64,000 nucleotides of DNA, from the NCBI RefSeq assembly GCF_945873775.1, contig NZ_CAMCEC010000005.1, positions 63,770 to 127,769 on the forward strand, in the 5' to 3' direction. Origin of the DNA: an uncultured Treponema sp. (GTDB lineage: Bacteria; Spirochaetota; Spirochaetia; Treponematales; Treponemataceae). The notes below the pieces were generated by a model. That model was not told where the DNA came from. It saw only the letters and a list, made by a program, of their open reading frames with translations, and did not search any database. The position numbers and the translations under genes are program-made. Each line of letters begins with the position of its first letter. The first letter of the stretch is position 1. Positions 1 through 22,560 of the stretch are shown in pieces.

Positions 1-1303
1 GTGGTGGCGAAGAGCGCCATCTTCGGAAGCATGTTCTCGTAACGCTTCCAGAGTCCTTTTTCGTTTTTGTGCTGATTCACAAAGCTTTCCACCGCATTGG
101 AGACAAAGCTCTGCGTATGGACGTTCGCATAGTCATCGATAAGAGTTTTCTTGAGATAGCCGGAATCAATCGCCTCCTTCAATCCGTATTCATAGACAAC
201 TTCTGGCATCAGGCGGTTTTCGATATACGGCGTTCCTGTAAAGTTGTAGCAGGCGACAACCTTTGTTCCTGCCGCGTCCAGTTCTTGAACAAGTCCGTCA
301 ATCGTAAGTCGCAGGCTTGTTTCCTTTGTGCGGTCGAGCATATCGTTTTTCAGGGATTTCCCGAAAGCGTGGTGCGCCTCATCGACGTAGATTCCAAGCT
401 GCCTTAGCCGGGTGAGTTTCTGGTAACGCTGGTTCGCCATCAGGGAAGAATCGTCATCGAGCATATAAAGGTCGGCGTTCGGGCTCTCGCGGATTGCGTC
501 TTCCCAGGAATCCTTGAAAAGCAGGTTCTCTGCCGAATCTTCCTTGCGCTTTTTCTTGAGAATGATTTTCTGCGATGTGGAGATGATCAGGTTGAAGTCC
601 GAGCCGTCCATTGTGCTGAGCGCGGCTCCGTCCTCTTCAAGAAAATGGAACTTGATGATTGTATCCAGCTCGTTGGCGTATTTTTCGGTAAAGACCTTTG
701 CCTTATCAAAAGTCTGGATTTCCTTGAGCGACTGCAAGACCGTCGTGTCCGGCGCGAGCACCAGCGCATTGTGGCAGAAACGCTCATCCTTCGGGTATTT
801 ATGGGCAAGCAGAAACTCATAGAAGATGCACAGCGCCATCAGGATTGTCTTTCCGGTTCCCATGGTGAGCGCAAAGATGTAGTTCGCATATTCCTGCCGT
901 AAATCCGAAAGCTGTTCAAAGAATGAAATTAGCGTGTCGCGGTTCGTCGTGTCCAAGACAGAGAAAAGCCCATCGCCGTAATAATGGCTATTGTCGAAAG
1001 TGAACGGAACAGCCGCATTCTCGTTCGCACCTTGAACCATGCGGTTTTTCCGCCAGTCATCGAACAGGTCGGCCAGGCGCGGATTCCCCAGATATTCTTT
1101 TAGGAACACATACATTTCAAACGCCTCGTACTGCGGCTTCCTCAAAAAGGCGTTCGGATTGTCCTTGCGAGGCTCGGCATTTGCAAGAATTGTGCGTGTA
1201 AGATTCGTGTACGATTTTCTGATTTCCTTTTTGTTTGCCGAATAGAACTGCCACATAATGCGGTAGAACGGAAAATCGATTGAGTTTTTTTTGACTTCGC
1301 CAT
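1..1303 (-). pseudogene. res: Type III R-M restriction subunit (DEAD-box helicase), 5' part; frameshifted at an A8 tract after codon 4-6; runs off the window edge
   Basis: Long open frame from ~1284 to the window edge contains LTMGTGKT (Walker A), VDEAHH (motif II) and NFTGTP (motif III). ATG at 1303 has a GGAGG RBS and a TAATG overlap with the upstream ORF, but it is one base out of frame unless A8 (1285-1292) is A9. Confidence 0.85.
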
Positions 1304-3229
1304 TATTTTTCCTCCGCCTGAACCGTGCATTCCCAGGATTCGCTGATAAGGTCGGTAATCTTTATATGGATTGCACCGGCCGTTTCTGGAATATCGTATT
1401 CGCCTTTTACCAGCGCGTTCTTTTCCGGGATGTCGGTGAGGGACGGGCTGAACGTTACGCCGTCGTAGTTCCAGTCGATGAACACGCTTTCGGCAAGCTC
1501 CTTCCAGTCGCTCACGTCGGTCTTTTCGATGCTGAGCTTCTGCAGCAGGTTCATCGGGAAAAAGTTCTCGATGACGAGTTTTCTTCCCTTGACTACAACT
1601 TTTGCGTCGCTGTCTCGCTTGAAGCGCAAATCCTTCTTGTCACGCAAGAGGTCGATGATTTCAAGGTCCACCCGGAATCCCATCTTGTCCGCTTCCTCTT
1701 CAAACTGCGCTTTTAAATTCGGGTCGTGCCCCATGCACACAAAGGTTATCGCTTCGACAGGCTTTGCAGGATTTTCCTTTTGCCTCTCCTGCCACACGGA
1801 AATATCCACGTTGGAAAGCAGCCTGGCGAACTCGCTTGCGGTGGCAATTCGGTTGATTCCGAGAATGCACACCTTGCGGCCGTCGAGCAGCGCGTCATAG
1901 ACATTGCTGTCGGTGAGCTGCTCCATGCCCATCGCTTCGCAGATAAGGCGTTTGGCTTCCAGCTCGTTGCGGAAGAATTCGTAGTCGTTTACGTTATAGA
2001 CTTCAAAGCCTGTGTAGAAAGTGCCGGTACGGTCTGGGGATTCCCGTGTCGGGGCACGGGAATGACATTTCGTAGAAAGGGTTCCGTTTGAGGGATCAGA
2101 GGGGGGGGAAGCCTTCCCCCCCCTGCGTCGCACTTCGTTGCGCCGACACCCCCGCAACGCCCCCGTCATTCTGCGAAAACAGCGTGTCATTGCCGGGCTT
2201 GACCCGACAATCTATCTCCTTCGCCGCTTTCAGAAGCCGTTTTGTGGTGGTCTGGATGGCGCCCAGGTTGATGTCCGCGCCGATAAAGCGCCTGCCGAGC
2301 TTCATGGCGACCGCCTGCGTGGTGCCGCTGCCCATAAAGCAGTCGAATACGAGGTCTCCGGGATTGGAAGATGCCTTGATAATGCGTTCGAGCAGGGCTT
2401 CGGGCTTTTGGGTGGGGTAACCAAGAAATTCTTTACTTGCAGATTTCGTTGTAGAACTCTGTCCAATTTCCCAAACATCATCTGCTTTCTTTTCGTAAAA
2501 CATTTCATAGATTAGGCTACCATCAGGATTTCTTGCTGAAACCAACTTTCCTAATTCTGAAGACCAAATGCGTTTATCACGTTTAGTCGGTTTATCAAGA
2601 GGAATCATAATTGTATTTGCAACAAAACAATTCCCTTTTTTGAACCAAAGGATATTATTGTGATTTGTAGCAAAACCTTTTACATTTCCCTGAAAATTAT
2701 CCGCATAATGCCAAATTATTTCATTCACAAAATTTTGATTTCCGAATACTTCATCAAGAAGTAGTCTCAAATGCCCGCTCTTATGCCAGTCGCAGTGCAG
2801 ATAAATGCTTCCGTTGTCCGCCAAAAGTTCCCGGCACAGAATCAGGCGCTCGTACATGAACTGCAGGTATTCGTCGTTTGTCCAGATGTCGCCGTACTGC
2901 TTTTCCTCGAACGTGGTGCTGTCGGTTTCCGCACTTTTTCCGCGCAGCTCAATCTTCTTCTTGTAGTCCGCCTTGGAATCAAACGGCGGGTCAATGTAAA
3001 TCAGGTTCACCTTGCCCCGGAAGTTTTTTAGCAGGTGGCTCATCACCTGCAGGTTGTCGCCCCAGTAGATTTTGTTCCGCCAGCCGTCCACGTCGTCTCC
3101 GTATCTTTCCTTCAGCTGCGCCGGATAATAGGGCGTGCCGGTAAAGGGGCGCTTTCCCGTCCATCGCAGTTCCGGGTAGCCGCGGATCGGCTCGTAGTTG
3201 AATTCAAAAAGTTCTTTCTGGTCAGTCAT
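1303..3229 (-). pseudogene. mod: Type III R-M methyltransferase subunit (N6-adenine MTase), split into 2096..3229 and 1303..2190 by a frameshift at G8/C8
   Basis: Has IYWGDNL, IYIDPPF, YPTQKPEALLERII and DCFMGSGTT...GADIN motifs. The second frame continues FYTGFEVYNVNDY and ends directly at res. Deleting one base in G8 or C8 (2101-2123) fuses the frames. Confidence 0.85.
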
Positions 3230-3239
3230 GTTTTCCTCG

Positions 3240-6206
3240 TTAAATGTTTTTTCCGCAATAGAATCTGAAGTCGCATTCGGCGCACTGGGCGGGGGCGCAT
3301 TTTCCGCTGCGTGTAAAGTTTTTTCGTTCTATTTTGTGAACAACCTCGTCCACTTCACTGATTGTTTTTTCCACGGAGCTGTTTTCATATCTGTAGCTGA
3401 TTACCGGATTTTCATCGCTTGTGCCTGTGTAGAATAGGTTCAGCCGGCTGATTTCCTTTCCAGTACGCTCATGGAGAATCTTTGCATAGATTTCGAGCTG
3501 ACGGCGGTATTGGGAAAGCCGTTCCTTGCTTTCCTCGTTGTTTACATCTGGCTTTTTGCCGGTCTTAAAGTCAAGAATTTCATAAGTGCCGTCCGAGCCG
3601 CGCACAAGGTCGATTTTTCCTTCAAGAATGTAGTCTTCCTTTTGGAGAGTAACAGGAACTTCCGCCTCTTTTACTTTCTGCCAGTCGTCTTTTGCATAAT
3701 CCACATAGTTCTGAATATTCTTTAGCACAACTTTTAAACTGCTTTCTGAAAAATATGCGTTCTGTGCTTTTGAAATCTGCCGGTAGTTCTCTGCTAGCCA
3801 GAAGTCAATTTTTTCTTTGGTGATTTCGTTTGCCCTGCCTTCAAGAACTGTCCTGTGAATATCCTCGATTGTCTGATGGACAAGTGTTCCGAACAGAAAC
3901 GAGTTATTGCGCACCGGCATAAATTCCAGTTCTCTGTAAAACTTGTACTGCAAAGGGCAGGCTTCATACAAAAGAATATGGCTGGTAAATGAATATTCGT
4001 GCTTTATCTCGCTTGTTTTTACTTCTTCCAGAACTGGAATTGTGTTTCCGCTTTTGAACAGCTCTTCCCAGTCCGGCACATCGTTACATATAGAAGAAAA
4101 ATATTTTGAGGGGCAGTTGCGCTGCCGTTCCGCCCGGTTTCCTCGTGAAGTGTCAATGTCGCTCAATACAAGCAGATTCTGTGCGCGGCTGAATGCGGTG
4201 TAGTAGAGCCGCCAGAAATCAAAATACTTTGTGCGGTTGAGCGGCTCCCATGGTGTTTTTTGGTGATAGAAATTTGCTATGTCCTCATCAAGAGTGTCAA
4301 AATTCTTGCGTGGAGTTCTGCCAAGAGAAGTTACAACAGTTATGGGAAATTGTAATCCCTTTGACTGGTGAATTGTCATAAAGCTTATACAGCCGCTCGG
4401 AGTTGCCATGTCAAAGTCTTCGTATTCTTCAAGGCCGCCGTCATACAGAAAATGAAGGTAGTTTCCAAAAAACTGCTTCAGCACCCAGTACAGCTTCTTT
4501 TTTTCAGAGATGAAGACATTCACATTGAACATCGCTTCAAAACGTGTCAAAAGCTGGCTGAACTTTGCAAGATTGTAGCAGGGGCGCAAATCCTGCACAC
4601 CTGAATCAAGTTCCACATCAAGAAGCTCCTTGAATAGCGGAAACTGCAAAAGCTGATAGAACAAATCCGCAAATGCGTAGTCGGTGTTGTGTGTAAGGTT
4701 GTTCAGCTCCTTGAATTTCTGCGTCGCAAAAATCAGAAGTTTTTTGTGCTTTTCCTTGTCTTTTCTGATTTCATCTCCAAAAAATCTTGAGCAGTTCTCA
4801 TAATATGAATAAATATCATCTTGTTTTCGGCTGTCTGATTTTGGCTTTAAGACTTCCTCAATCAGATTTGGAAAGATGAACATATAAAAGCCCACTGCAA
4901 GACGGATTTCTTTACGCTCAAAAAACATATCGCTTCTGGGACTGAATGTGGGGATTCTGTGTTCTTCAAGATATTGCGCAAGAAAACGTGTGTTGTCATT
5001 TTTTACAGAATATGAAAGGACTGCAATCTGATTGTAGTTTTTTAGAATGTTTTTCTGACGTAATATGCTGATAAAATCTAAAACTTCCTTGCACCATGTT
5101 TCAACTTTTGCGTCTCCCATGACGCGGACCACGCCGGGATAGTTCTCCTGTTCCTCCGTGGTGTTTTTTGCATGAAGAATCGTCTTGTCATAGCGGAAAA
5201 CTTCTCCGTTTTCTCCTTGCCAGTCGCCTGAGCCGCCGTCCTTATCTTCAGCAAGCCATGGGGGTTTCATGTATTTGTTGTAGAAACTGATGATGTCTTT
5301 GTGCGAGCGGAAATTTCTGTTCAGCTCGATTTTTTTACATTCACCTTTTGAGAAATTTTCCTGAAAGCGCAAAATATTTTCTACAGTTGCGCCACGGAAA
5401 CGGTACAAAGCCTGGTCGTCATCGCCTACAACACAGATTCTGTTTTTAGGCGCGGCAAGCTTTAAAAGAATCTGCTCTTGAATACGGTTTGTGTCCTGGT
5501 ACTCGTCTATCATCAGATATTGGATTTTCCTGCGCAAATCATTCAAGACAAAATCGTCTTTTAAAAGTTCCCACATCATCGTCTGAATCAGCGAAAAATC
5601 CAAAGCATTTCGTTCGGAAAGAAGCCCTCTGTATTCTTTTGTGAGTGCGGCAAGAACTGGAAGCGTTTTACTCTCTGTGCAGGCGGAAAGTTTTTCCAGG
5701 TCAAGATTTTCTTCGCTTGGACGGCTCACAAGGGCCGCAATTTTTTTTGCAAAATTCCAGCCGAAATGTCCGCTTACAAGAGTGTCAAGATTTTCTATTT
5801 TATTGAACCGTTCTGAATTTTGAAAAATAAGATACTGCTTTTCAAAGTCATCAAGCACGCGGTAGTTTCTTTTTAGTGTTGTGTGGGCGCGGTATTCCTC
5901 AAGAATGTTCAGAAAAATCGAGTGGAGCGTGCCAATGTACATATCAGAAATATTGATTGTTATTCCAAGTTCATGGGCAAGAGAAGAAATTCGGCTCACA
6001 AGTTCCTTCGCCGCTTTTTCGGTAAAAGTCGCCACTAAAATGCTGGATGACGGAATACCCAAATCTGCGACAAGATGAATCACCCTGTCCACAAGCGTTT
6101 TTGTCTTTCCTGCTCCAGGGCCCGCAATTACAAGAAGCGGCTGTTCGGTGGTGAGGATAACGGATTGTTGCTCCTGTGTGGAGGCGGAAAAGTCTAAAAC
6201 TGGCAT
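3240..6206 (-). CDS. UvrD/REP-family helicase fused to a C-terminal PD-(D/E)XK (RecB/Cas4-like) nuclease
   Basis: AGPGAGKT, IDEYQDTN, VGDDDQALYRFRGA and MTIHQSKGLQF helicase motifs. C-terminal YEACP...GKIDLV...DFKTG...QLEIY...CAPAQCAECDFRFYC. Confidence 0.9.
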   Translation of the reverse strand: MPVLDFSASTQEQQSVILTTEQPLLVIAGPGAGKTKTLVDRVIHLVADLGIPSSSILVATFTEKAAKELVSRISSLAHELGITINISDMYIGTLHSIFLNILEEYRAHTTLKRNYRVLDDFEKQYLIFQNSERFNKIENLDTLVSGHFGWNFAKKIAALVSRPSEENLDLEKLSACTESKTLPVLAALTKEYRGLLSERNALDFSLIQTMMWELLKDDFVLNDLRRKIQYLMIDEYQDTNRIQEQILLKLAAPKNRICVVGDDDQALYRFRGATVENILRFQENFSKGECKKIELNRNFRSHKDIISFYNKYMKPPWLAEDKDGGSGDWQGENGEVFRYDKTILHAKNTTEEQENYPGVVRVMGDAKVETWCKEVLDFISILRQKNILKNYNQIAVLSYSVKNDNTRFLAQYLEEHRIPTFSPRSDMFFERKEIRLAVGFYMFIFPNLIEEVLKPKSDSRKQDDIYSYYENCSRFFGDEIRKDKEKHKKLLIFATQKFKELNNLTHNTDYAFADLFYQLLQFPLFKELLDVELDSGVQDLRPCYNLAKFSQLLTRFEAMFNVNVFISEKKKLYWVLKQFFGNYLHFLYDGGLEEYEDFDMATPSGCISFMTIHQSKGLQFPITVVTSLGRTPRKNFDTLDEDIANFYHQKTPWEPLNRTKYFDFWRLYYTAFSRAQNLLVLSDIDTSRGNRAERQRNCPSKYFSSICNDVPDWEELFKSGNTIPVLEEVKTSEIKHEYSFTSHILLYEACPLQYKFYRELEFMPVRNNSFLFGTLVHQTIEDIHRTVLEGRANEITKEKIDFWLAENYRQISKAQNAYFSESSLKVVLKNIQNYVDYAKDDWQKVKEAEVPVTLQKEDYILEGKIDLVRGSDGTYEILDFKTGKKPDVNNEESKERLSQYRRQLEIYAKILHERTGKEISRLNLFYTGTSDENPVISYRYENSSVEKTISEVDEVVHKIERKNFTRSGKCAPAQCAECDFRFYCGKNI

Positions 6207-6328
6207 CTTACATTTTTTAGGCGGTAGAACCGATTTTTATGCAGTAAAATACGGATAAACCCACCTTTTGTATATAATCGGACAGTCTAACCCACTTCTA
6301 TAGTTATTTAAACGGTTATTTTGACCTT

Positions 6329-6643
6329 ATGAATAATTATAAAAATGATTTTATAGATAACCTGATTTTTTACAGAACTCAAAAAAAAATGTCCCAGCTG
6401 GAGCTTTCAGGAATTTGTGATTGCGCAAAAAGCACGATTGGCGGAATCGAGTCAAGAAAAAATTTTCCTTCCTTTGAGCTGATTCTGAAAATAGCCTATG
6501 CGCTTGAAATCCACCCTGCAGACTTGTTCTTGCGGAATGCCAGCCAAAGCCGCAAGGAAGTGCGGAAATTCTTTGACGAGGAAGTTTCTGCAAAACTAAA
6601 GGAAATGGTTGAAAAAAGATTCCCTTTGGTAGAGTTTGAGTAG
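6329..6643 (+). CDS. XRE-family helix-turn-helix regulator
   Basis: RTQKKMSQLELSGICDCAKSTIGGIESRKNFPSFELILKIAYALEI is a typical HTH_3 pattern. Confidence 0.85.
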   Translation: MNNYKNDFIDNLIFYRTQKKMSQLELSGICDCAKSTIGGIESRKNFPSFELILKIAYALEIHPADLFLRNASQSRKEVRKFFDEEVSAKLKEMVEKRFPLVEFE

Positions 6644-6897
6644 TTTTTTCAATGTCTGTTCATTTTTTTAGCTAAAGATTATGTAGAGAAATTAGAAGTA
6701 AAGGGCAGTTTATGCCGTTGTTTTTGAAGGAATGTTCATAAATGAGCCGTGTCCGATGATTGTTCCTGCCTATGAGTATTTGCTGCACATTCTGAATTCC
6801 AAGCTGGAGAAATATTATATACGAAGTCTTGGCTTTACAAGAAACCGCAGCTGCTGAAACAATTTGTTTATTCATTCCTAAATTTCTTTAGAATGAA

Positions 6898-7119
6898 TCA
6901 ATCAGATAATTCATTTTCGATTAAATCTTCTGCCAGATTTTTATAGTCCAGATTTTCTATTCCATTTTCACCTGATTCAATTTGTTTTGCAAGTTTACTG
7001 GAATAATATTTATCCATGGCCTCCCGCAAATCTATTTTTAATGTTGCCGCAAGATAATTAATAATATCTGTTTCGAGATTCTGTTTATAAATTTCAGTTA
7101 AATCTTTTGAATTTGTCAT
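6898..7119 (-). CDS. Small helical protein, DUF3791-like
   Basis: Third gene of a coupled trio (4-bp overlap). DIINYLAATLKIDLREAMDKYYSS resembles DUF3791-type partners. Confidence 0.6.
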   Translation of the reverse strand: MTNSKDLTEIYKQNLETDIINYLAATLKIDLREAMDKYYSSKLAKQIESGENGIENLDYKNLAEDLIENELSD

Positions 7120-7601
7120 TTATTTTCAACCAAATAGGATTTTTCGAATTTTAAAACAGCAGGAATAATTCCTTGATTTACGATGCAGATTTGATCGTTC
7201 ATTTTATAATATCTCAATTCTTCTATGGTTCTTTTTTTATCCCATAAACCTCGGAAATACATATCCACTGTTTTAAATACATCGTCATTGGCAACATTTC
7301 CAATTATTATATCATAGGCTTCATTCAGATTGTCACCATTTCTGCATGCACATACAAAATCAAGCCATTTTTCATTCTCATTGTCGAACCTTAAAGTTCT
7401 GTACTGGGAAAAATCTTCAATTAGTGTATAAACATTTACTGTTGGTTTTCCGTTATACCGGGCGGCTTTTCTAGAAGCCCATTTTTCAGCCTGATTCTGA
7501 TAAGTGGTGATATAAAATCCTTTTCCGAAATCCAAATAGTTTTTAGAAAAAGAAACATCAGGACTCTGAATTTCCTTGTTGGAACCGTGGAAAACTGTCA
7601 T
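7116..7601 (-). CDS. DUF3990 family protein (ADP-ribosyltransferase-like fold suspected)
   Basis: FHGS...LDFGKGFYITT..QAEKWA...WLDFV...YDIIIGNVAND...QIC matches the DUF3990 pattern. Confidence 0.8.
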   Translation of the reverse strand: MTVFHGSNKEIQSPDVSFSKNYLDFGKGFYITTYQNQAEKWASRKAARYNGKPTVNVYTLIEDFSQYRTLRFDNENEKWLDFVCACRNGDNLNEAYDIIIGNVANDDVFKTVDMYFRGLWDKKRTIEELRYYKMNDQICIVNQGIIPAVLKFEKSYLVENK

Positions 7602-7816
7602 ACAGCAATTCCTTTTTCACGCACAAAGCCTGAAATATCTTCGGCTAAAGCCTTTTCTCCCTGCGTATGAAGCACATCGTAATATTTTATGATATAGTCG
7701 TCGAGTATTTTCGTTTTGTTCAATGTATGATAAACATCGGCAGGTGTCATGTGCCATTTTTTAGCAAGCTGATGTATCATAAAAATTGAAAATTCCATCT
7801 CAGTTTTTTTGCACAT
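7598..7816 (-). CDS. DUF3791 family protein
   Basis: FSIFMIHQLAKKWHMTPADVY..L....ILDDYIIKYYDVLHTQG matches the DUF3791 pattern. Has a GGAGG RBS. Confidence 0.8.
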   Translation of the reverse strand: MCKKTEMEFSIFMIHQLAKKWHMTPADVYHTLNKTKILDDYIIKYYDVLHTQGEKALAEDISGFVREKGIAV

Positions 7817-8046
7817 ACCGCACCTCCAAAAATATTCTTCTATAAGATAGCATAATTCTTACAAAAAATCATCCTTTAAATACCGCGTGTAATTACTGCA
7901 CTAATAGCCTCATTATTAGTTCAGTAATCAACATTCATTTAGTGCAGTATCGGTCTCCTTTTCACCGCATTAGTTAAATTTTATTGAACTTTTTGATTTT
8001 TATTCTTGACTTCTTATTTTTGTTATTGTATATTGTGTGTGTAGGT

Positions 8047-8136
8047 TCAAAATATTTGAATATTTTGATTTATTTAAGGTTTATACAAACCTTAAAAACG
8101 GATGAGTCAAGGTCTTGAGCGTAAGCGTACCTTGAC
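8047..8136. promoter_or_regulatory. Three consecutive inverted repeats upstream of the XRE-ImmA pair (putative operators)
   Basis: TCAAAATATT-TG-AATATTTTGA (8047-8068), TTAAGGTTT-ATAC-AAACCTTAA (8074-8095), GTCAAGGT-N15-ACCTTGAC (8106-8136). Confidence 0.5.
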
Positions 8137-8168
8137 CAGACGTATTTTATTAAAGACAGGGTAAAGAG

Positions 8169-15886: not shown

Positions 15887-18800
15887 TCATACCGTATAAT
15901 CTGAAATATCAATTTCCTTGTCGTAACGAAGATAATAAAGAAAAGTTTTTATATCTTTTGTATCGACCTGGAAAATTTCAGAAGCGGCTTTGCGATAACA
16001 AGAAAGCTGTTCGATATAAAGTTCTGGCTTTGCAACACGGTCTGTTTTGTAATCAACAATAAAAAATTTTTTGTCTGAATCTTGAAAAATCAAATCCATT
16101 GAACCTGTAAAAATCGTATCGTCCATAAGAAATTTAAATTTGTTTTCAGCTTTGCAAAGACGGTTGCTTCTTTTTGCATCTGCAACTTTTTTTCCAAGAT
16201 CACTTTGTTTAAAAGCTTCACACATAGACACAATAGTCTTTAAAAGAATTTCCTTAGCTTTTTGATTTTCAGAAAGTTTCTTTGCAACAATTCTGTCAAT
16301 AAAATTTTCAGCATTTAAAAGATTTCCAGTAGAAACAAAGCATTCAAGATAAGAATGCGCAAGTTTTCCAAAATCAGCATAATTAAATTCAGCAGAAGCA
16401 GAATCCTCTTCATTCTCTTCTAAAATATCAGAAGCTGGCTTTAAAACAAAATCAACAGAAGAGTATTCTTCGTTTATTTTAAATGCGTCGTCAATTTTTA
16501 CAGTTGTTTTTGGAGGCAACTTTTCAAGACCGCTTGGCGTTTGAGTTTTATCAAAAAATTCTTGAGGAAAATCAATGTCTTTTTCAAATGGAGTTTTGTC
16601 ATAAAAAGAAGAAAACAATTCTATCTTTTTCTGCCTAAGTTCATCTAAACTTATTTTATCATCTGCGCGGACTTTTGTAGAAACAGGATTTATTTTTATA
16701 AAATCAAACGGCGCGCCATGTTTATTAAACACAGGCACATTGCAATACGATTCAAAAGAAAAATCATTGTCGGCATAAAGTTCCTTCTGATAATAAAAGC
16801 GGCAAAGCTTGTGCATCAAGGAAAGTGAGCCATCATATTTTTTTTCAGCATTATCAGACTCGTCAAACTTCTTTAATTCCTTGCTTCTTGAAAGACTTCC
16901 GACTAGATGCACATCTTCTTCTGCCCGCGTAATGGCAACATAAATTTTACGTTTTTGTTCAGCAAGTTCTCTTAAAGCAGAGTCTTCTTTTTGGCGTACA
17001 GAAAAGTAATTTCCACCTTCGCCCAAAGCGCATAAAGAAACTCCAGTTGCGTTTTTTTCGTCAAATCCGTCTTCATCAAAAAAGAAAGTTCCTGTTGTTT
17101 GCGCTTTAGGATTTCCCCAAATTCCAATAACAAAGACATGCTTAAACTGCAAGCCTTTGCTCTGATGAATTGTCATAATTTTTACAGCGTCAGGTTTTTC
17201 AAGCGGATAAGAAATCTCTTTTAGCTCAAGTTCAACGCTCTCATCATTCATATAAGATGAAATTTCTTTCTTTTTTGCAATTCCAAGTTGATCAACAAAC
17301 CAAGAAATGCTTTTTCCTTCGTTTTCAGCCTGACGCGCAGTTTCATAAAGCAAGTCAAACTGCTCTGAATAAAGTGAAAGATTTCTATTTAAAATTGTCT
17401 CAAAGTAATATCCAGTTTTATACCACAAAAATTCAAGTGATTTTGTAAGACTTTGAGAAAGAATATCTTCCCGCAATTCTTCATAAAAACTTTTTGCAGA
17501 CAAATATTTTTTCAGATCAGAATCAGAAAGAGAAAGTTCATCATTTTCCTCAAATGCAGAAAAAATAATTTCAGAATTCTTTGTCTTTTTTACTGATGCT
17601 GATAAAATATTTTGAACGCCTTGCATGCTTATTCCAGCAAATGGCGAAGAAAGAAAAGCTGCAAACGCATTTGAATCTGAAGGATAAACGCAAAACCTTA
17701 AAAAACTGTAAAAGTCATTTACAATTCCTTCTGAAAAAACATTTGTCTGACGGTCAACTGTATAAGGAATGTTAAAAAGAGAAAGATACCTTTGCAAATA
17801 AAATCTTCCTGAACGAGAATTGTCCAGAATTGCATAGTTGTTAAAGTTAGAATCTTTTTTTGAAAGCTCATAAATTTTTCTAGCTATAAAATATGCTTCT
17901 GTTTCTTTTTCGCTAAGACATTTTCCATAGTTTACAAAATCAGCAAAGTTGTTTCCGTCTTCATTTTCTCCTGTATTTAAAAGACATAAGTGAATAGGAA
18001 CATTACTTGCATCAACAGAAGCCGGGATTTCGTTTTTTTTCAAAGCATTGTGTTTATATTCGGCTTCATAGCTTTTTATATCTGCAATTCCATTTTCTTC
18101 TGAATAAAACAAAGAAGGAATTTCAGTTTCATTCAATGGCCGTTTGTCATCGCAGTTTCCAAACATCAGATTAAAAGAATAAAGCAAAGGAACAGAAGAG
18201 CGGTAATTGTTTGTCATATTCAAGTTAACATTTTCTTCTGAACCAGAGTTATCCTTTAAAGATTTTTTTAACTCATTGAATACGCTTACATCTGCCCCGC
18301 GGAATTTGTAAATCGACTGTTTTTCATCTCCAACAAAAAATAATTTTTCCGCAGAAACATTTTTTTCAAGCTCAGCAAAAAATTCTGTTTCAGTTTTGTC
18401 TTCAATTAAAAGTTCTTTGCCATTATTTTCAGAAATAAGAAACAAAAGCTCCTTGTTTTTTTTGTTGTTATCTTGAAACTCATCTATCATTATTTTCTTT
18501 ATAAGATTTTTTTGCTGCTTTCTGATGTCTGGCTGCTCAACAAGAATCCTCAAAGCCAAGTCACCAACATCTTTAAAAGAAAGATTCCCAGAAATGCGTT
18601 TGGTATTATTTACTTCTTCAAGGAATTCATCAAGAAGTTCAAACATTCTTTTTTGCGCAGAAAAGTTTTTTATAAAATTCACGACAGAAACAACAATAGG
18701 AATCGTTTCTCTTATTATCTTTATAATTTCCTTGATTTCTTTTACAGGTTCTTTGCTTCCGCCTTTATTCATGCTTATTGAGCAAATAGAATTTATACTT

Positions 18801-19684
18801 GAACAGAACTCCTGCGCAGTTACAGAAAAAGAATTTGCATTTTCTTCATCTAAAAAATTAAATGAAAAATTATTTCTGTTTTCTGTAAAATCATTTTTTT
18901 CAACTAATTCTTTTAATTCATTTACAAAAGCATTTTTTTCATCAGCTTCATTTAAAAGTAATTTTAAATTTTCAAACTTCGATTTTATAGAATTTTCATT
19001 TTCATCAAAAAAAGAATTCCAGGATTCAAGTATCTGTTGCTTTTGTATCTGAAAATTATCCGAAAAAAAGTTTTTTCTTGTAGCAACAGAAGTACATTCC
19101 AAAACTGGAGCAGCAAAATAATTCGCTGCAAAATCTTCTATTTTTCCAGGCATAGAATAAATATTAAAGCATTCTTCAGTTCTATGCTTTAAAACAAATG
19201 GAAGGGCAGCATCTTCAACAGCACGATCACAAGATGAAGAACCCGTTGTAAAATCAGGGCGAATTCCGTAGCGGCTAGCAGCAATTCTTACAAGAGAACC
19301 ACTGTAAGCATCAAGAGTTTGAATCTTGGCATCTGCAAATTCATCTAATGCTCTTTTTGCAAGTTCTACCTGCTTTGGATATTTTTCCTTATCAAGAAAT
19401 TTTACAAACGCATTAAGTTTCTTATATATTCGATCATAAATTTCAGAAGCTGCTTCTTTTGTAAAAGTAAGAGCAAGAATATTTTTTACACGTATGTTTT
19501 CATCGGTCATAAGTAAAAAAGCATATCGAAAAGCAAGAACATCTGTTTTTCCAGAACCAGCTCCAGCGGAAACAACTGCATTATCTTTTTTTGTTATTGC
19601 TTTAATCTGAAAAATATCAGGCGATTTTGAATTAGCAGGATTTTCAGTTAAAGGCTCATTTAAAAAATCATAATCAATGCTCAT
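15887..19684 (-). CDS. addA: ATP-dependent helicase/nuclease subunit A
   Basis: SAGAGSGKT, IDEFQDNN, VGDEKQSIYKFRGA, MTIHQSKGL and YVAITRA motifs; C-terminal GSMDL...DYKTD...QLSCY. Confidence 0.9.
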   Translation of the reverse strand: MSIDYDFLNEPLTENPANSKSPDIFQIKAITKKDNAVVSAGAGSGKTDVLAFRYAFLLMTDENIRVKNILALTFTKEAASEIYDRIYKKLNAFVKFLDKEKYPKQVELAKRALDEFADAKIQTLDAYSGSLVRIAASRYGIRPDFTTGSSSCDRAVEDAALPFVLKHRTEECFNIYSMPGKIEDFAANYFAAPVLECTSVATRKNFFSDNFQIQKQQILESWNSFFDENENSIKSKFENLKLLLNEADEKNAFVNELKELVEKNDFTENRNNFSFNFLDEENANSFSVTAQEFCSSINSICSISMNKGGSKEPVKEIKEIIKIIRETIPIVVSVVNFIKNFSAQKRMFELLDEFLEEVNNTKRISGNLSFKDVGDLALRILVEQPDIRKQQKNLIKKIMIDEFQDNNKKNKELLFLISENNGKELLIEDKTETEFFAELEKNVSAEKLFFVGDEKQSIYKFRGADVSVFNELKKSLKDNSGSEENVNLNMTNNYRSSVPLLYSFNLMFGNCDDKRPLNETEIPSLFYSEENGIADIKSYEAEYKHNALKKNEIPASVDASNVPIHLCLLNTGENEDGNNFADFVNYGKCLSEKETEAYFIARKIYELSKKDSNFNNYAILDNSRSGRFYLQRYLSLFNIPYTVDRQTNVFSEGIVNDFYSFLRFCVYPSDSNAFAAFLSSPFAGISMQGVQNILSASVKKTKNSEIIFSAFEENDELSLSDSDLKKYLSAKSFYEELREDILSQSLTKSLEFLWYKTGYYFETILNRNLSLYSEQFDLLYETARQAENEGKSISWFVDQLGIAKKKEISSYMNDESVELELKEISYPLEKPDAVKIMTIHQSKGLQFKHVFVIGIWGNPKAQTTGTFFFDEDGFDEKNATGVSLCALGEGGNYFSVRQKEDSALRELAEQKRKIYVAITRAEEDVHLVGSLSRSKELKKFDESDNAEKKYDGSLSLMHKLCRFYYQKELYADNDFSFESYCNVPVFNKHGAPFDFIKINPVSTKVRADDKISLDELRQKKIELFSSFYDKTPFEKDIDFPQEFFDKTQTPSGLEKLPPKTTVKIDDAFKINEEYSSVDFVLKPASDILEENEEDSASAEFNYADFGKLAHSYLECFVSTGNLLNAENFIDRIVAKKLSENQKAKEILLKTIVSMCEAFKQSDLGKKVADAKRSNRLCKAENKFKFLMDDTIFTGSMDLIFQDSDKKFFIVDYKTDRVAKPELYIEQLSCYRKAASEIFQVDTKDIKTFLYYLRYDKEIDISDYTV

Positions 19685-22560
19685 AAAATTTCCTTTTTTG
19701 CAATATTAAATGATGTTCTGCAAATTGAATTAAGTCCGCACTTCATGCAGTCTTTGTAAACATTTACACCATGCTCTTTGTCCGCTTGAAAATTCTTAGG
19801 CTCAAAATCAAATTCAGCAGATTTTTCATAAAAGTACTCTGCAAAAATTTCAAACTCAGTCAAAGTTTTTTCAAACCCATCTCTGTCTGTGTTATGGCTT
19901 CTTGCATTCGGCACTTTTGAAATAATCTGCACAACATCAAAGTTATCTGCGGAATCCTTTTTTATCTTATAAAACATAGCAGAACAAACTTTCATTTCAT
20001 TGCTTTCCAAAAGCTTTACGTATGAAGCCATTTGAAAGTCTCCTAAAGACGGAATTGAATCAGCATTAAAAATACAGTCTTTTATAGAAGGCGCAGAACC
20101 AGTCTTATAGTCAATGATAAACAGTTCGTCAGGCTCATCAGGATTTAAAAGCACGCAGTCAATCTTTCCAAAGAAGTCGAATTGTCCTGAACTGCATGGA
20201 ACTTCTTTTTCAATTTCAACCCCTTCAATAAAATATCCGCCGAAGTTCTTGCATCCTTTTTTATCAGAACAATCTGGCAACGCACAAAACTGTCTGAAAA
20301 ACAAAAATACATTTTTACAAATAAGTTCTTTCTGGCTTTCAATAATTCTAAGAGCAAGCGGACTTCTTGAAAATCCTGAACGAAGTTTAGCTTCATCAAA
20401 GGAAGAATAAATCAGTTGCTCTATCTGCCCAGAAGTTTCTTCACTGAATACTGGAATCTTTCCTTTATAAATTCCATCTTTATCTTGAAAGTTTTTACAT
20501 ACAAGCTCAATTGTTTTATGAATAAGAACGCCAGCCTCATAGTTTTTTATAAGGTCTACATCTAAAGAATCTTCTTTTAAACTTAAAACTTTTGTAAAAA
20601 TAAATTTTCTTGGACAAGGAAAAAAACTCTTTAATTCTGTCTGAGAAATTTTTACTTTTTCAGGATTTGAATTTTTTCCTTTATCTCTTAGCTCTGCATT
20701 GATTTTATTTTTTAAAGAATCAGATATACAAGAAGAATTGCCGAAAGCAAAAACATTTTTCCAATTATAAAAAGATTTCTGCTGCATTTCTGAAAAAACA
20801 CGCTCCGAAACAACTCCGTCTTTAAAATCTTTTTTTTCATTATTAATAAAATCAAATTGCTCAAGAGTTTTTTCACCTGCTTGCTCATAAGATTCAAGCG
20901 CAGTATGCATAATTGCAGAACCAGAAAATGATTTTTTCGATGCAGAAAAAAACACCTGCTTATTTTTTAACGTTCTCTGTTGACTGCAATAGAGTTTTAT
21001 AAAATCAACAGAAGCGTCTTTTTCATTTAAATCAAGCAACGCACGTTTTTCAACATCATTTATAAACCCAAGTTTTTTAAAAGGAACTGAAATATCTCTT
21101 TGGGTTGCATTTATTACAAACTGATATTCAAAATCCGCGCAAACAGAAAGCCTATAAGGAAAAACATTAACTCCATATTTCTTTTCATTAGGCGTATAAG
21201 TCTTCTGGTTAATTTCATTTATAAAAAAATCAAAGGCAGAATTTAATTTATAATTTATTTTTGAAAGATAATCATGCTCAATAGACACAAGATTATTTAA
21301 ATCAGTAATTATTCGTCCTAGGATTTTATCAGTTGTCTTGTAACGCTCTTCATTAAATTTTTTTTCATCAACAAATTTACTTTTAAAATTGTCCCATGCA
21401 AATTTCAGTTTTTGAAAACTAGATGCATTTTCAAATTGCAAAACAGCGTCTTTGATTTTTAAATAAAATTCTCTCTCTGCGCTTCCATCATCAAGTGAAG
21501 AAAGCCATATATCTTTGATAGATTCACCTTCTTCATAGCTGCATACACATCTTTTTTCATTTCCTGCTCTTACAAGACGCTCATTTAAATCAAAATCTTT
21601 CCACGGAATATATCCATCAAGCAAAAACGAACGTACACTGTCATAAGAAAAGTTAGAAGAAGCGCAGTCTTTTATTTTTTGAAAAATATCTCCGCCGCAA
21701 TTCTTTGTATATGGAACTCCAGCACGCACAGTGAACGGAACAGAATAAATTGACAGTTCTCTTTCCAAATAAGGTCTGATATTTTCCAAGTCAGGAACAT
21801 TGACGGCCACTGTACGCAAGTCAATTTTTTCAAGATGCAACTGCCTAAGCCTAAGAGCAAGCATTCTAATTTCCTTTCGCGCATCATTATAAAAAACACA
21901 CTTGCCGCTCTGCGCATTCTTGGGAATACAAACCAATGTTACATTTTCTTCCGCACAAAGAATATTCTGAAATTCCGCAAAGTCTTCAAGAATCTCTGGA
22001 TAAAAAATAAAAATTCGCTTTTCATTCTTCTTGAAATTTGAATCTAAATAAGAAGGCTCATAAAAACTGTTCTGCGTCAAAAATTCTTTGTAAAGCTCAA
22101 AAAGTTTTTTGTAGTCATTATCTTCATCATCAGGAATTTTTCCTGCGGCGCAATACTTTTCAAACTGCTCATTCCAAAGTTTTAATGAAGGAAGAATCTT
22201 TGCAATCCAATCTGTAAAGCTAAAAACATTATCCTTGAACTCTGGCGCAGAAGAAACAATTCTTTTAAAGAAATGCTTCTCATTATTTTCTGAAAGGATT
22301 TTTTGAACAAAAACTTTTCGCACAACTGGAGGAATACAAATAAGATTTTCGTCAGCAGCCTTTAAATAATCAGACTTGAATTTATCCCATGCCGTAAACT
22401 GATCAAGATTAAAAGCCCGCACACCAGATTCATCCGAATTTTTTACAGTCCAATTTATCCAGCTTGTCTGAACAACATCAGTAGGAAAAACAAAAAGTGA
22501 ATCTATATTCTTTATATTAGCCGCAATGACTTCTGAAATCTTTTCTTCACTAAAATTCAT
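19681..22560 (-). CDS. addB: ATP-dependent helicase/nuclease subunit B (PD-(D/E)XK, Fe-S)
   Basis: Overlaps the addA start; degenerate helicase N-terminus; FPCPRKF...GKIDC...DYKTG...QMASY...CMKCGLNSIC. Confidence 0.85.
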   Translation of the reverse strand: MNFSEEKISEVIAANIKNIDSLFVFPTDVVQTSWINWTVKNSDESGVRAFNLDQFTAWDKFKSDYLKAADENLICIPPVVRKVFVQKILSENNEKHFFKRIVSSAPEFKDNVFSFTDWIAKILPSLKLWNEQFEKYCAAGKIPDDEDNDYKKLFELYKEFLTQNSFYEPSYLDSNFKKNEKRIFIFYPEILEDFAEFQNILCAEENVTLVCIPKNAQSGKCVFYNDARKEIRMLALRLRQLHLEKIDLRTVAVNVPDLENIRPYLERELSIYSVPFTVRAGVPYTKNCGGDIFQKIKDCASSNFSYDSVRSFLLDGYIPWKDFDLNERLVRAGNEKRCVCSYEEGESIKDIWLSSLDDGSAEREFYLKIKDAVLQFENASSFQKLKFAWDNFKSKFVDEKKFNEERYKTTDKILGRIITDLNNLVSIEHDYLSKINYKLNSAFDFFINEINQKTYTPNEKKYGVNVFPYRLSVCADFEYQFVINATQRDISVPFKKLGFINDVEKRALLDLNEKDASVDFIKLYCSQQRTLKNKQVFFSASKKSFSGSAIMHTALESYEQAGEKTLEQFDFINNEKKDFKDGVVSERVFSEMQQKSFYNWKNVFAFGNSSCISDSLKNKINAELRDKGKNSNPEKVKISQTELKSFFPCPRKFIFTKVLSLKEDSLDVDLIKNYEAGVLIHKTIELVCKNFQDKDGIYKGKIPVFSEETSGQIEQLIYSSFDEAKLRSGFSRSPLALRIIESQKELICKNVFLFFRQFCALPDCSDKKGCKNFGGYFIEGVEIEKEVPCSSGQFDFFGKIDCVLLNPDEPDELFIIDYKTGSAPSIKDCIFNADSIPSLGDFQMASYVKLLESNEMKVCSAMFYKIKKDSADNFDVVQIISKVPNARSHNTDRDGFEKTLTEFEIFAEYFYEKSAEFDFEPKNFQADKEHGVNVYKDCMKCGLNSICRTSFNIAKKEIL

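What the first reader, a model, noticed from the sequence alone, without database searches (positions are those of the whole stretch)
3240..6206. Single-chain UvrD helicase plus Fe-S RecB/Cas4-like nuclease as the first gene of a type III R-M operon
Seen: complete SF1 motifs, then a nuclease with one Cys before the active site (YEACP) and three at the end (CAPAQCAECDFRFYC). The stop is 10 bp from the mod start, and a separate housekeeping addAB exists at 15887-22560. Established: this 1+3 Cys pattern is the [4Fe-4S] staple of AddB/Cas4/Dna2. Inference: a dedicated helicase-nuclease that processively destroys DNA after Res cleavage, or acts as a backup defence when mod/res are switched off. I do not recognise this three-gene architecture as a named system.
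Basis: partly seen in the sequence, partly recalled or inferred. Interest (0 to 1): 0.72.

Follow-up and report, generated by a model that had tools for sequence, protein, structure and literature searches.

The report
Known helicase-nuclease heading a switchable restriction operon
The gene really encodes a DNA-unwinding motor fused to an iron-sulfur-type DNA-cutting domain at the head of a mobile three-gene restriction-modification cassette, a combination already described by comparative genomics in 2017 but never tested; in this strain the methylase gene flips on and off at a G/C hairpin tract.

Summary
Observation confirmed. Window 3240-6206 (-) encodes a 988-aa protein with a complete UvrD-type SF1 helicase and a C-terminal Cas4/AddB-like PD-(D/E)XK nuclease. 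The Cys pattern C750...C975-x2-C978-x5-C984 is invariant in 64 homologues. Its stop lies 10 nt before a type III-like mod, followed by res. An AddAB-like pair sits at 15887-22560.

The triad is real and conserved. Of 18 homologous loci at 40% identity or more, 14 carry the cognate Mod+Res; these include conjugative plasmids and one phage. Helicase, Mod and Res divergences co-vary (r up to 0.98).

It is not new. Hudaiberdiev et al. 2017 (PMC5704561) reported UvrD-Cas4 fusions whose commonest neighbourhood is type III Mod/Res. I found no name for it and no experiment.

The AlphaFold model best matches AddA, then UvrD/PcrA/Rep, RecB and AdnAB. The most likely role is an accessory motor-nuclease that processes DNA ends after Mod-Res cleavage; this is inferred, not shown.

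Specific to this locus: mod is frameshifted at a G8-AAGGCTT-C8 hairpin inside a repeat-derived linker. Contigs from 15 public runs show 8 tract alleles, 3 ON and 12 OFF, consistent with phase variation.

Verdict: an ordinary new member of a known, uncharacterised kind, with modest interest.

The parts
3240..6206 (-). uvrD-cas4-like gene: 988-aa SF1A helicase fused to an Fe-S-type PD-(D/E)XK nuclease; first gene of the cassette
   Evidence: AlphaFold model pLDDT 86.3, pTM 0.82. Best fold match is AddA 4cej_A, E 3.4e-31.
4152..6179 (-). Helicase core (about aa 10-685): Walker A GPGAGKT, DEYQD, VGDDDQ..YRFRGA, TIHQSKG, YTAFSRA
   Evidence: Pfam PF00580 and PF13361; invariant columns; PcrA/UvrD PDB sequence hits.
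3255..4001 (-). Nuclease domain (about aa 736-984): C750, D866, D879-x-K881, QxxxY (Y900/Q903), C975-x2-C978-x5-C984
   Evidence: PF12705 and PF01930; TIGR00372 cas4; invariance.
3230..3239 (-). 10-nt spacer containing AGGA between the helicase stop and the mod start
   Evidence: Sequence read.
2096..3229 (-). mod, 5' ORF (377 aa): complete N6/N4 MTase core plus variable target-recognition region; ends at a TGA just after the C tract in this allele
   Evidence: PF01555 E 9e-53; PADLOC MTase_III PDLC03633. The full-length L081 Mod (P0121) hits EcoP15I Mod 4zcf_A at E 7e-15.
2101..2123 (.). Hypervariable hairpin tract. Plus strand: G8 (2101-2108), AAGCCTT, C8 (2116-2123). A change of -1 or +2 nt joins the two mod ORFs.
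   Evidence: Eight alleles among public runs.
2030..2215 (.). Repeat-derived linker insertion in mod (about 45-58 extra codons, absent from other Mods), bounded by copies of two dispersed hairpin modules
   Evidence: Mod alignment; genome BLAST and copy census.
1303..2040 (-). mod, 3' part: conserved about 240-aa C-terminal domain ('ModC', no Pfam family); out of frame with the 5' ORF in this allele
   Evidence: 6829 homologues at E<=1e-5. Fold search uninformative.
1..1256 (-). res, 5' part (the ORF continues left of the window to C5:62038; 995 aa): SF2 ATPase (LTMGTGKT, DEAHH) plus a C-terminal TnsA-like PD-(D/E)XK (YYPDFL, E-I-K)
   Evidence: PF04851; PF08722 27.8 bits; alignment; genome ORFs.
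6329..6643 (+). Divergent 104-aa HTH_3 gene, a candidate controller; conserved at the same position in L081 and L084
   Evidence: Intergenic palindrome ACGGT-N7-ACCGT in the L081/consensus sequence of alignment A3; the window copy reads AAGGT-N7-ACCGT.
15887..22560 (-). Separate AddA-like (1265 aa) and AddB-like (959 aa) pair: context, not part of the cassette

Best explanation
The gene encodes the third, accessory component of a horizontally mobile type III-like restriction-modification cassette with gene order uvrD-cas4 -> mod -> res.

Inferred mechanism:
1. Mod (an N6/N4 methyltransferase carrying the specificity region and a family-specific C-terminal domain) together with Res (an SF2 ATPase with a TnsA-like PD-(D/E)XK nuclease) recognises unmethylated foreign DNA and breaks it.
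2. The UvrD-Cas4 protein is built like AddA/RecB: a 3'->5' SF1A motor followed by a nuclease. Its nuclease carries the AddB/Cas4 [4Fe-4S] cysteine staple. It would load on the resulting ends or nicks, unwind and degrade the DNA.
3. This would make restriction irreversible and independent of the host AddAB/RecBCD, which phages often inhibit.

State of this copy: the restriction arm is switchable. A G8/C8 hairpin tract in a repeat-derived linker of mod shifts the frame. The allele in the window is OFF: the MTase core is kept and the C-terminal domain is lost. The helicase-nuclease ORF is intact.

Shown here: domain content, conserved catalytic and Fe-S residues, operon structure, conserved linkage, co-divergence, mobility and tract-length polymorphism. 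Inferred: every biochemical step.
For: - Domains and invariant residues.
- Fold: the best match is full-length AddA, then UvrD/PcrA/Rep, RecB, AdnAB and AddB.
- Coupling: a 10-nt gap to mod in the window. In relatives the helicase-mod junction ranges from an overlap to a short gap, and mod overlaps res.
- Linkage: 14 of 18 loci at >=40% identity carry the cognate Mod+Res. Two more carry decayed remnants and one carries another MTase plus DEAD/DEAH pair.
- Co-divergence: pairwise identities give r = 0.98 for helicase vs Res and 0.955 for helicase vs ModC.
- Mobility: the triad occurs on plasmids of Bacteroidota, Alpha-, Beta- and Gammaproteobacteria and Bacillota, and in a phage. It is patchy in the window's own phylum, 7 of 401 genomes. 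The island is 41-53% GC in a genome of about 32% GC.
- Accessory status: more distant Mod+ModC/Res pairs (30-37% identity) exist without the helicase.
- Independent agreement: Hudaiberdiev et al. 2017 predicted an ancillary role.
- Res nuclease and ATPase motifs are invariant, so Res can plausibly make the first cut itself.
Against: - No experiment exists for any member.
- The genome already has an AddAB-like pair, so end processing would be redundant unless it serves inhibitor resistance or specificity.
- Within the >=40% clade the helicase is almost never missing, which fits an obligatory subunit as well as an accessory one.
- In this strain mod is OFF in 12 of 15 resolved samples. The conserved res start is out of frame. 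The local cassette may therefore be decaying, which would argue against any current restriction-coupled role here.
- The only metatranscriptome pieces lie inside the helicase gene. That is compatible with a role independent of mod/res.
Confidence: 0.5

Rival explanations
1. Integral subunit of a distinct restriction-modification class. Mod and the very divergent Res only recognise and license the target, or translocate. The Fe-S helicase-nuclease is the obligatory DNA-destroying effector, so without it there is no restriction.
For: - The triad is nearly invariant at >=40% identity.
- The helicase is always the first gene, at a short gap or overlap, and diverges in step with Res (r = 0.98).
- Res has no detectable sequence similarity to any solved structure, EcoP15I Res included. 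PGAP does not name it a restriction enzyme.
- Mod carries a family-specific C-terminal domain with no known fold match.
Against: - The Res nuclease triad (E ... PD ... ExK) and its ATPase motifs are invariant, so Res looks catalytically competent on its own.
- More distant Mod+ModC/Res pairs occur without the helicase.
- Some loci have 1-2 unrelated genes inserted between the helicase and mod.
Confidence: 0.2
2. Host-protective repair factor. The helicase-nuclease resects self-inflicted breaks made by the restriction enzyme, for example after mod switches or after acquisition of the cassette, and feeds them into RecA repair. This would lower the cost of carrying the cassette.
For: - AddA/RecB-like architecture.
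- Hudaiberdiev et al. suggest a role analogous to the RecB/AddB nucleases in recombination.
- The mod gene here is phase-variable, a situation in which self-restriction risk arises.
Against: - No Chi-recognition partner and no second subunit.
- The host already has AddAB.
- Carriage on phages and plasmids across phyla fits an offensive module better than host-specific repair.
Confidence: 0.1
3. Autonomous defence or DNA-metabolism enzyme that merely travels with restriction-modification genes. It would be a stand-alone helicase-nuclease immunity in the manner of Nhi, Hna or Gabija-like end sensing, needing neither Mod nor Res.
For: - Family members occur without Mod/Res (L104, 41% identity; Halomicrobium and Fusobacterium at 27-30%). 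Per the 2017 paper they also occur with Dcm/Vsr or alone.
- The helicase ORF is intact while mod is mostly OFF.
- Transcript fragments are seen only in the helicase gene.
- The N-terminal half matches PADLOC GajB and DRT helicase profiles.
Against: - The PADLOC matches cover only the generic UvrD core (residues about 10-314/437).
- There is no GajA/OLD partner.
- The strong co-divergence with Mod and Res is unexpected for an independent passenger.
Confidence: 0.12
4. Local state only: the mod frameshift is pseudogenisation or assembly noise, not programmed phase variation, and the cassette is a decaying relic in this lineage.
For: - 12 of 15 resolved samples are OFF, no better than the one-third ON expected from random tract lengths.
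- The res start is out of frame with the conserved N-terminus and its C-terminus is extended.
- Decayed triads exist elsewhere (L001, L112).
- The data are assembler contigs, not reads.
Against: - Eight different tract alleles occur in sequences that are otherwise identical over 451-701 bp in most runs.
- Three samples are ON.
- Alleles are consistent within one study (X6, X7, X8 and X16 all G9).
- Contigs break at the tract in 4 runs, as expected for mixed populations.
- The window's allele is reproduced by an independent assembly of run X1.
Confidence: 0.3

Closest known systems
UvrD-Cas4-like fusion proteins next to type III Mod/Res (Hudaiberdiev et al. 2017, BMC Evol Biol, PMC5704561)
   Same: Identical domain architecture (UvrD SF1 helicase plus pfam12705 Cas4-like nuclease) and identical neighbourhood (Mod and Res, sometimes with HTH or WYL regulators). 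The window also has a divergent HTH gene.
   Different: Nothing essential. This copy adds a repeat-derived, tract-bearing linker that splits mod, and an altered res start.
AddAB / RecBCD / AdnAB double-strand-break helicase-nucleases
   Same: An SF1A motor followed by a C-terminal PD-(D/E)XK nuclease in one chain, as in AddA and RecB (best Foldseek matches). The C...CX2CX5C staple has the spacing known for AddB and Cas4 (spacing from my own knowledge).
   Different: Single chain with no partner subunit, no Chi-recognition module, about 250 residues shorter than AddA. It is encoded in a mobile restriction-modification cassette rather than a housekeeping operon. The genome has its own AddAB-like pair.
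Canonical type III restriction-modification (EcoP15I/EcoP1I)
   Same: A beta-class N6/N4 Mod similar to EcoP15I Mod (4zcf_A, E 7e-15). Res has an N-terminal SF2 ATPase and a C-terminal PD-(D/E)XK nuclease. Gene order is mod then res, overlapping in relatives.
   Different: - A third gene is present.
- Res shows no sequence similarity to EcoP15I Res, and its nuclease matches TnsA_N (PF08722) rather than RE_endonuc (PF19778).
- Mod has an extra C-terminal domain of about 240 aa.
Phase-variable type III mod genes (phasevarions of Haemophilus, Neisseria, Helicobacter)
   Same: A simple-sequence tract inside mod whose length changes shift the reading frame; ON and OFF alleles coexist in populations.
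   Different: - The tract is a G8/C8 inverted pair forming a hairpin.
- It lies in an inter-domain linker derived from a dispersed genomic repeat.
- OFF alleles retain the whole MTase core and lose only the C-terminal domain.
- No methylome or regulon data exist.
Gabija GajB and other defence UvrD helicases
   Same: The UvrD-type helicase core gives strong PADLOC hits.
   Different: The hits cover only the N-terminal core. There is no GajA/OLD partner. GajB has no fused Fe-S nuclease.

Membership tests
UvrD-Cas4 fusion family (largest pfam12705 branch, Hudaiberdiev 2017) | N-terminal UvrD-like SF1 helicase with intact motifs | tested here: met
   PF00580 E 2.6e-65 and PF13361; motif residues invariant.
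UvrD-Cas4 fusion family (largest pfam12705 branch, Hudaiberdiev 2017) | C-terminal pfam12705/Cas4-like PD-(D/E)XK nuclease with four Fe-S cysteines | tested here: met
   PF12705 E 8.6e-24 and PF01930. D866, D879-x-K881, C750, C975, C978 and C984 are invariant. Actual cluster binding is not testable here.
UvrD-Cas4 fusion family (largest pfam12705 branch, Hudaiberdiev 2017) | Neighbourhood of type III Mod and Res genes | tested here: met
   Window ORFs; 14 of 18 related loci.
Type III restriction-modification system | Mod: N6/N4 (beta-class) methyltransferase with an internal variable target-recognition region | tested here: met
   PF01555; PADLOC MTase_III; EcoP15I Mod hit; variable central region.
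Type III restriction-modification system | Res: SF2 helicase-like ATPase plus C-terminal PD-(D/E)XK endonuclease, homologous to EcoP1I/EcoP15I Res | tested here: inconclusive
   PF04851 33-34 bits and PF08722 27.8 bits; motifs invariant. However, there is no PDB sequence hit to EcoP15I Res, and NCBIfam gives only a weak BPTD_3080 match of 81 bits against a cut-off of 800.
Type III restriction-modification system | Intact, co-translated mod-res pair | tested here: not met
   In this window mod is frameshifted and the conserved res start is out of frame. The feature is met in relatives such as L081.
Type III restriction-modification system | ATP-dependent cleavage requiring two inversely oriented unmethylated sites; hemimethylation | not testable with these tools
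   Needs biochemistry and a methylome.
AddAB/RecBCD-type break-processing complex | Multi-subunit enzyme with Chi recognition encoded in a housekeeping operon | tested here: not met
   Single gene with no paralogous partner in the cassette. The genome's AddAB-like pair is elsewhere. The fold resembles AddA.
CRISPR-associated Cas4 | Encoded within a cas operon beside cas1/cas2 | tested here: not met
   No cas families appear among the neighbours of the window gene or of the related loci inspected. The TIGR00372 score of 51 is below its cut-off of 65.
Gabija (GajA/GajB) | UvrD-like GajB paired with an OLD-family nuclease GajA | tested here: not met
   Only the generic helicase core matches GajB profiles. 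No OLD/GajA gene is adjacent.
Phase-variable mod (phasevarion-type switch) | Simple-sequence tract within the mod ORF whose length varies between populations and sets the frame | tested here: met
   Eight tract alleles, 3 ON and 12 OFF in 15 resolved runs, and contig breaks at the tract in 4 runs. The data are assembler contigs, not reads.
Phase-variable mod (phasevarion-type switch) | Reversible switching within a clone, with differential methylation or gene expression | not testable with these tools
   Needs single-colony deep sequencing and SMRT or Nanopore methylomes.

The most novel reading that the evidence does not exclude
The helicase-Mod-Res triad is a distinct, uncharacterised class of restriction system in which the Fe-S UvrD-Cas4 motor-nuclease is an integral processive effector docked to Mod-Res, possibly through the family-specific Mod C-terminal domain.

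In this lineage a repeat-derived G/C hairpin tract in the Mod linker would then act as a 'safe' switch. OFF alleles would keep a methylation-competent Mod core but drop the C-terminal domain. Restriction would be uncoupled without loss of self-protection.
Probability: 0.15. Interest if true: 0.7.

Novelty: new member of a known kind. Interest (0 to 1): 0.35.

Why it matters
The UvrD-Cas4 / Mod / Res cassette is widespread. It occurs on plasmids of at least five bacterial phyla (Bacteroidota, Pseudomonadota, Bacillota, Cyanobacteriota, Fusobacteriota), in a phage and in many gut metagenomes, and the ModC search alone gave 6829 proteins at E<=1e-5. It is nevertheless absent as a system from the PADLOC library searched here, and standard annotation does not name its Res a restriction enzyme.

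Nobody has shown what a dedicated Fe-S helicase-nuclease adds to a restriction enzyme. One testable idea is that it makes restriction independent of host RecBCD/AddAB, which many phages inhibit.

This strain's natural ON and OFF mod alleles in otherwise identical DNA are a ready-made comparison for such tests. As a discovery, however, the architecture is not new.

Tried and rejected
- The genome-contig scan with the family alignment chose generic UvrD motifs as its patterns. It was swamped by ordinary UvrD/PcrA genes; only L001-L005 were full-length relatives.
- Rfam on window 1-9000 found nothing, so the GC-rich stretch inside mod is not a known RNA.
- PADLOC gave only generic GajB and DRT-helicase hits and no system-level match.
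- A PDB sequence search with Res found nothing.
- The Mod C-terminal domain has no Pfam family even at E<=1. Its AlphaFold model from 7 sequences was mediocre (pLDDT 68) and Foldseek gave no hit at E<=0.001, so its fold and role remain unknown.
- RNA evidence is weak. One 'RNA' run holds a 9.8-kb contig across the whole locus and both strands, which may be DNA carry-over. Two metatranscriptomes hold only three 164-220-nt pieces inside the helicase gene at depth about 3.
- I considered that the depth spikes at 2039-2070 and 2185-2215 marked a CRISPR repeat. I rejected this: they belong to a dispersed two-hairpin repeat found on many contigs.
Names on near-identical Mod homologues (Treponema sp., T. 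berlinense, Spirochaetia) and the livestock-gut origin of the runs suggest a gut spirochaete. I did not verify this.
Full report
**Observation**

The ORF at window 3240-6206 on the minus strand encodes 988 aa.
- Pfam finds UvrD-helicase (residues 10-285, E 2.6e-65), UvrD_C (293-682), PDDEXK_1 (742-984, E 8.6e-24) and Cas_Cas4 (859-984).
- NCBIfam finds PcrA/UvrD/Rep/AddA over the motor, and cas4 and addB_alphas over the C-terminus. None reaches an equivalog cut-off.
- In a 64-sequence alignment of homologues (47-95% identity, A2) every helicase motif residue is invariant. So are the nuclease residues D866, D879-F-K881 and Y900, and four cysteines: C750, C975, C978 and C984.
- The spacing C...CX2CX5C is the one I know from AddB and Cas4 (my own knowledge, not a tool result).
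- The stop TAA is followed by 10 nt containing AGGA and then the mod ATG at 3229.
- The ORFs at 15887-19684 and 19681-22560 are an AddA-like protein (full-length profile coverage) and an AddB-like protein with a Cas4-type nuclease.

All the stated observations hold.

**The rest of the cassette**

Downstream on the same strand lie mod and res.

*Mod.* It is split into two ORFs.
- ORF 2096-3229 (377 aa) holds a complete N6_N4_Mtase domain. It matches PADLOC MTase_III.
- ORF 1303-2190 has a conserved last 240 aa with no Pfam family.

*Res.*
- It runs off the left edge of the window. In the genome it is C5:62038-65025, 995 aa.
- It has ResIII (PF04851) and a C-terminal TnsA-like_N match (27.8 bits, cut-off 26.5).
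- Across eight orthologues these motifs are invariant: LTMGxGKT, DEAHH, TGTPY, QATMRCLR, and the nuclease signature E ... YYPDFL ... E-(I/V)-K.
- It has no sequence match to any solved structure, EcoP15I Res included.

*Similarity to EcoP15I.* The intact Mod of the closest relative (L081, P0121) does match EcoP15I Mod (4zcf_A, E 7e-15).

*Other context.*
- A divergent 104-aa HTH gene (6329-6643) is conserved at the same place in L081 and L084.
- The cassette is 41-53% GC in a genome of about 32% GC.

**Is the linkage real?**

*Metagenomic and genomic contigs*:
- The loci are L081 (95% identity), L084 (76%), L086 (57%), L091 (51%), L089 Apibacter (48%) and L090 Tunicatimonas plasmid (48%).
- All show the helicase-nuclease followed by an N6_N4 MTase of 580-655 aa, at an overlap or a short gap.
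- In each, a ResIII/TnsA-like protein of 861-945 aa overlaps or abuts the MTase.

*One locus from the phylum sample.* L103 has the triad with an HTH-M78 gene inserted.

*Annotated plasmids and one phage*:
- The cognate triad is present in Spirosoma pSLIN01 (two extra genes), Nitrosomonas europaea, Phaeobacter inhibens, Enterococcus casseliflavus (conjugative), Vibrio alginolyticus pVAS19, Blastomonas, and Acutalibacteraceae phage NatCom_11578 (one extra gene).
- Annamia keeps only a 35-aa Mod remnant.
- Priestia has a different 985-aa MTase plus a 1069-aa DEAD/DEAH protein.

*Others.* L001 holds decayed mod/res pieces. L104 (41% identity) is followed by a ribonucleotide reductase and is unlinked.

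| Outcome, 18 loci at >=40% identity with enough flank | Loci |
|---|---|
| Cognate triad | 14 |
| Decayed mod/res remnants | 2 |
| Another MTase + helicase pair | 1 |
| Unlinked | 1 |

Pairwise identities of helicase, Res and Mod co-vary: r = 0.98 for helicase vs Res and 0.955 for helicase vs ModC. The r values are descriptive only, because the pairs are not independent. The three genes therefore travel and diverge as one unit.

More distant relatives:
- A same-genus genome carries a UvrD (888 aa) plus a separate PDDEXK_1 ORF (288 aa), followed by a type III pair whose Res has the canonical RE_endonuc domain (L105).
- Relatives at 24-30% identity (L002-L005, Halomicrobium, Fusobacterium) have no cognate Mod/Res.

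The reverse test asks whether Mod/Res ever occurs without the helicase. In the same 401 genomes of the phylum, the helicase family occurs in 7 and the Mod C-terminal domain in 5. Three distant Mod+ModC/Res pairs (30-37% identity) lack a UvrD-Cas4 neighbour. The helicase-nuclease is therefore an addition to one clade of a broader Mod/Res family.

**Literature**

Hudaiberdiev et al. 2017, 'Phylogenomics of Cas4 family nucleases' (PMC5704561), make these points:
- The largest pfam12705 branch is a monophyletic UvrD-Cas4-like fusion.
- A second context is Dcm/Vsr.
- The fusion probably plays an ancillary role, partly redundant with RecB.

Three further full-text searches found no name for the system and no experimental test. 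Earlier agents of this scan reached the same verdict on other genomes. I had found the paper before reading their notes.

**How it probably works**

The AlphaFold2 model is good (pLDDT 86.3, pTM 0.82). Its best PDB matches, in order, are full-length AddA (4cej_A/4ceh_A, E about 1e-30 to 1e-31), UvrD/PcrA/Rep, RecB, AdnA/AdnB and AddB.

The protein is thus an AddA/RecB-style motor-nuclease in one chain, with the Fe-S staple of AddB/Cas4. Res looks catalytically competent by itself. Related Mod/Res pairs exist without the helicase. The cassette rides on plasmids and a phage.

The best-supported reading is an accessory end-processing enzyme. After Mod-Res breaks unmethylated DNA, the helicase-nuclease would load on the ends and degrade them, independently of host AddAB/RecBCD. 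Every biochemical step here is inference. The rival readings are an obligatory effector subunit, a host-protective resection factor, or an autonomous defence enzyme. None can be excluded computationally.

**What is particular to this window**

*Mod carries a foreign linker.* Compared with L081 (94% DNA identity in the helicase), the mod target-recognition region differs completely (window 2432-2777 is unaligned). The linker between the MTase core and the C-terminal domain is rearranged. Relative to all other Mods, the window and L081 carry about 45-58 extra codons there. This insert is bounded by copies of two hairpin modules of a dispersed genomic repeat:
- module A, TGTCATTATCGGGCTTGACCCGATAATCTAT, about 60 copies;
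- module B, ATTCCCGTGTCGTAGCACGGGAATGACA, about 33 copies.

*The hairpin tract sets the frame.* Inside the insert lies the hairpin G8-AAGCCTT-C8 (plus strand 2101-2123). With these lengths the frame ends at a TGA just after the tract. A change of -1 or +2 nt gives one Mod of 641-642 aa.

*Tract alleles in public runs.* I laid Logan contigs from public livestock-gut and other runs on the region. The sequences are otherwise identical over 451-701 bp in most runs, yet they carry eight different tract alleles. Strands below are gene-strand.

| Allele | Runs | State |
|---|---|---|
| G8/C8 | X1, X4, X11 | OFF |
| C9 | X3, X5, X10, X19 | OFF |
| G9 | X6-X9, X16 | OFF |
| Variant, +1 | X13 | OFF |
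| Variant, +3 | X18 | OFF |
| G10 | X2 | ON |
| C7 | X15 | ON |
| G7/C7 variant | X17 | ON |

In four more runs the contigs break at the tract (X12, X14, X29, X30).

*Interpretation and caveats.* This is the signature of a hypermutable, phase-variable tract, a known feature of type III mod genes. Two things are unusual here: the inverted double tract in a repeat-derived inter-domain linker, and the fact that OFF alleles keep the whole MTase core. The caveats are that these are assembler contigs rather than reads, that ON (3 of 15) is no more frequent than chance, and that switching within a clone is unproven.

*Res is also altered.* The conserved res start (an ATG overlapping the mod stop, MEKSKK..FPFY in L081) is out of frame in the window because of a 1-nt difference beside an A8 run (1285-1292). 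Res would therefore start 17 codons later. Its C-terminus is about 54 aa longer than in L081.

*Overall state.* The restriction arm of this copy may be attenuated, while the helicase-nuclease ORF is intact in all strains laid.

**Verdict**

The claim of an unrecognised architecture is not: it was published in 2017, though it remains unnamed and untested. This is an ordinary new member of a known but functionally uncharacterised kind, with a locally interesting switchable mod. Interest is modest.

Noticed in passing
window 2039-2070 and 2185-2215; genome-wide (e.g. C4:39295-39369, C6:33852-33926, C22:2506-2580): A dispersed two-hairpin repeat occurs on many contigs: TGTCATTATCGGGCTTGACCCGATAATCTAT, about 15 nt, then ATTCCCGTGTCGTAGCACGGGAATGACA. 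Copy numbers are about 60 and 33 for the two modules, often flanked by TCGAGTTTT...AAAACTCGA. Copies of both modules lie inside the mod coding sequence and are read through in frame.
   Followed up: partly
window 2432-2777: The mod target-recognition region is unrelated to that of the 94%-identical relative L081 and has visibly lower GC than its flanks. This suggests a specificity-domain swap by recombination.
   Followed up: partly
window 1256-1305 (A8 run at 1285-1292): The conserved res start codon overlapping the mod stop is out of frame in this strain because of a 1-nt difference next to an A8 run. Res would lose its conserved 17-residue N-terminus (..FPFY..).
   Followed up: partly
left of the window, C5:62038-62250: The Res C-terminus is about 54 aa longer than in L081 and ends in a RelE/ParE-like-looking peptide (..GIRIIFVWQEKLEP). 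The HTH-SocA_Panacea gene that follows res in L081 is missing here.
   Followed up: no
window 6700-8140 (ORF 7116-7601): A DUF3990 (ART-PolyVal-like) gene sits between the HTH gene and the HTH_19/Peptidase_M78 pair. This segment is absent from the otherwise syntenic relative L081.
   Followed up: no
window 5499-5877: Strains in runs X18, X19 and X30 carry a dense patch of about 40 substitutions in the 5' part of the helicase gene and are near-identical elsewhere. This looks like a recombination tract. No indels were reported in the helicase ORF.
   Followed up: no
L105:7452-16940 (same-genus genome G317): A second, distant lineage (33% identity): UvrD (888 aa) and a PDDEXK_1 protein (288 aa) as separate adjacent ORFs, followed by an N6_N4 MTase and a ResIII protein with the canonical RE_endonuc domain.
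   Followed up: partly
L117 (PV036426.1, Acutalibacteraceae phage NatCom_11578) 6501-14654: A complete helicase-(246 aa)-Mod-Res cassette is carried by a phage genome at its end. Cassettes also occur on conjugative plasmids of Enterococcus and Vibrio.
   Followed up: partly
L111, L113, L114 (RefSeq plasmids): NCBI's pipeline names the Res of this cassette 'TnsA endonuclease N-terminal domain-containing protein' or 'DEAD/DEAH box helicase family protein'. These systems are therefore not labelled as restriction enzymes in annotation.
   Followed up: no
window 6207-6328: The intergenic region between the HTH gene and the helicase gene holds a palindrome next to the HTH start, partly conserved in L084: ACGGTCAAAATAACCGT in L081, with AAGGT as the left arm in the window. 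It is a possible operator of a controller protein.
   Followed up: no
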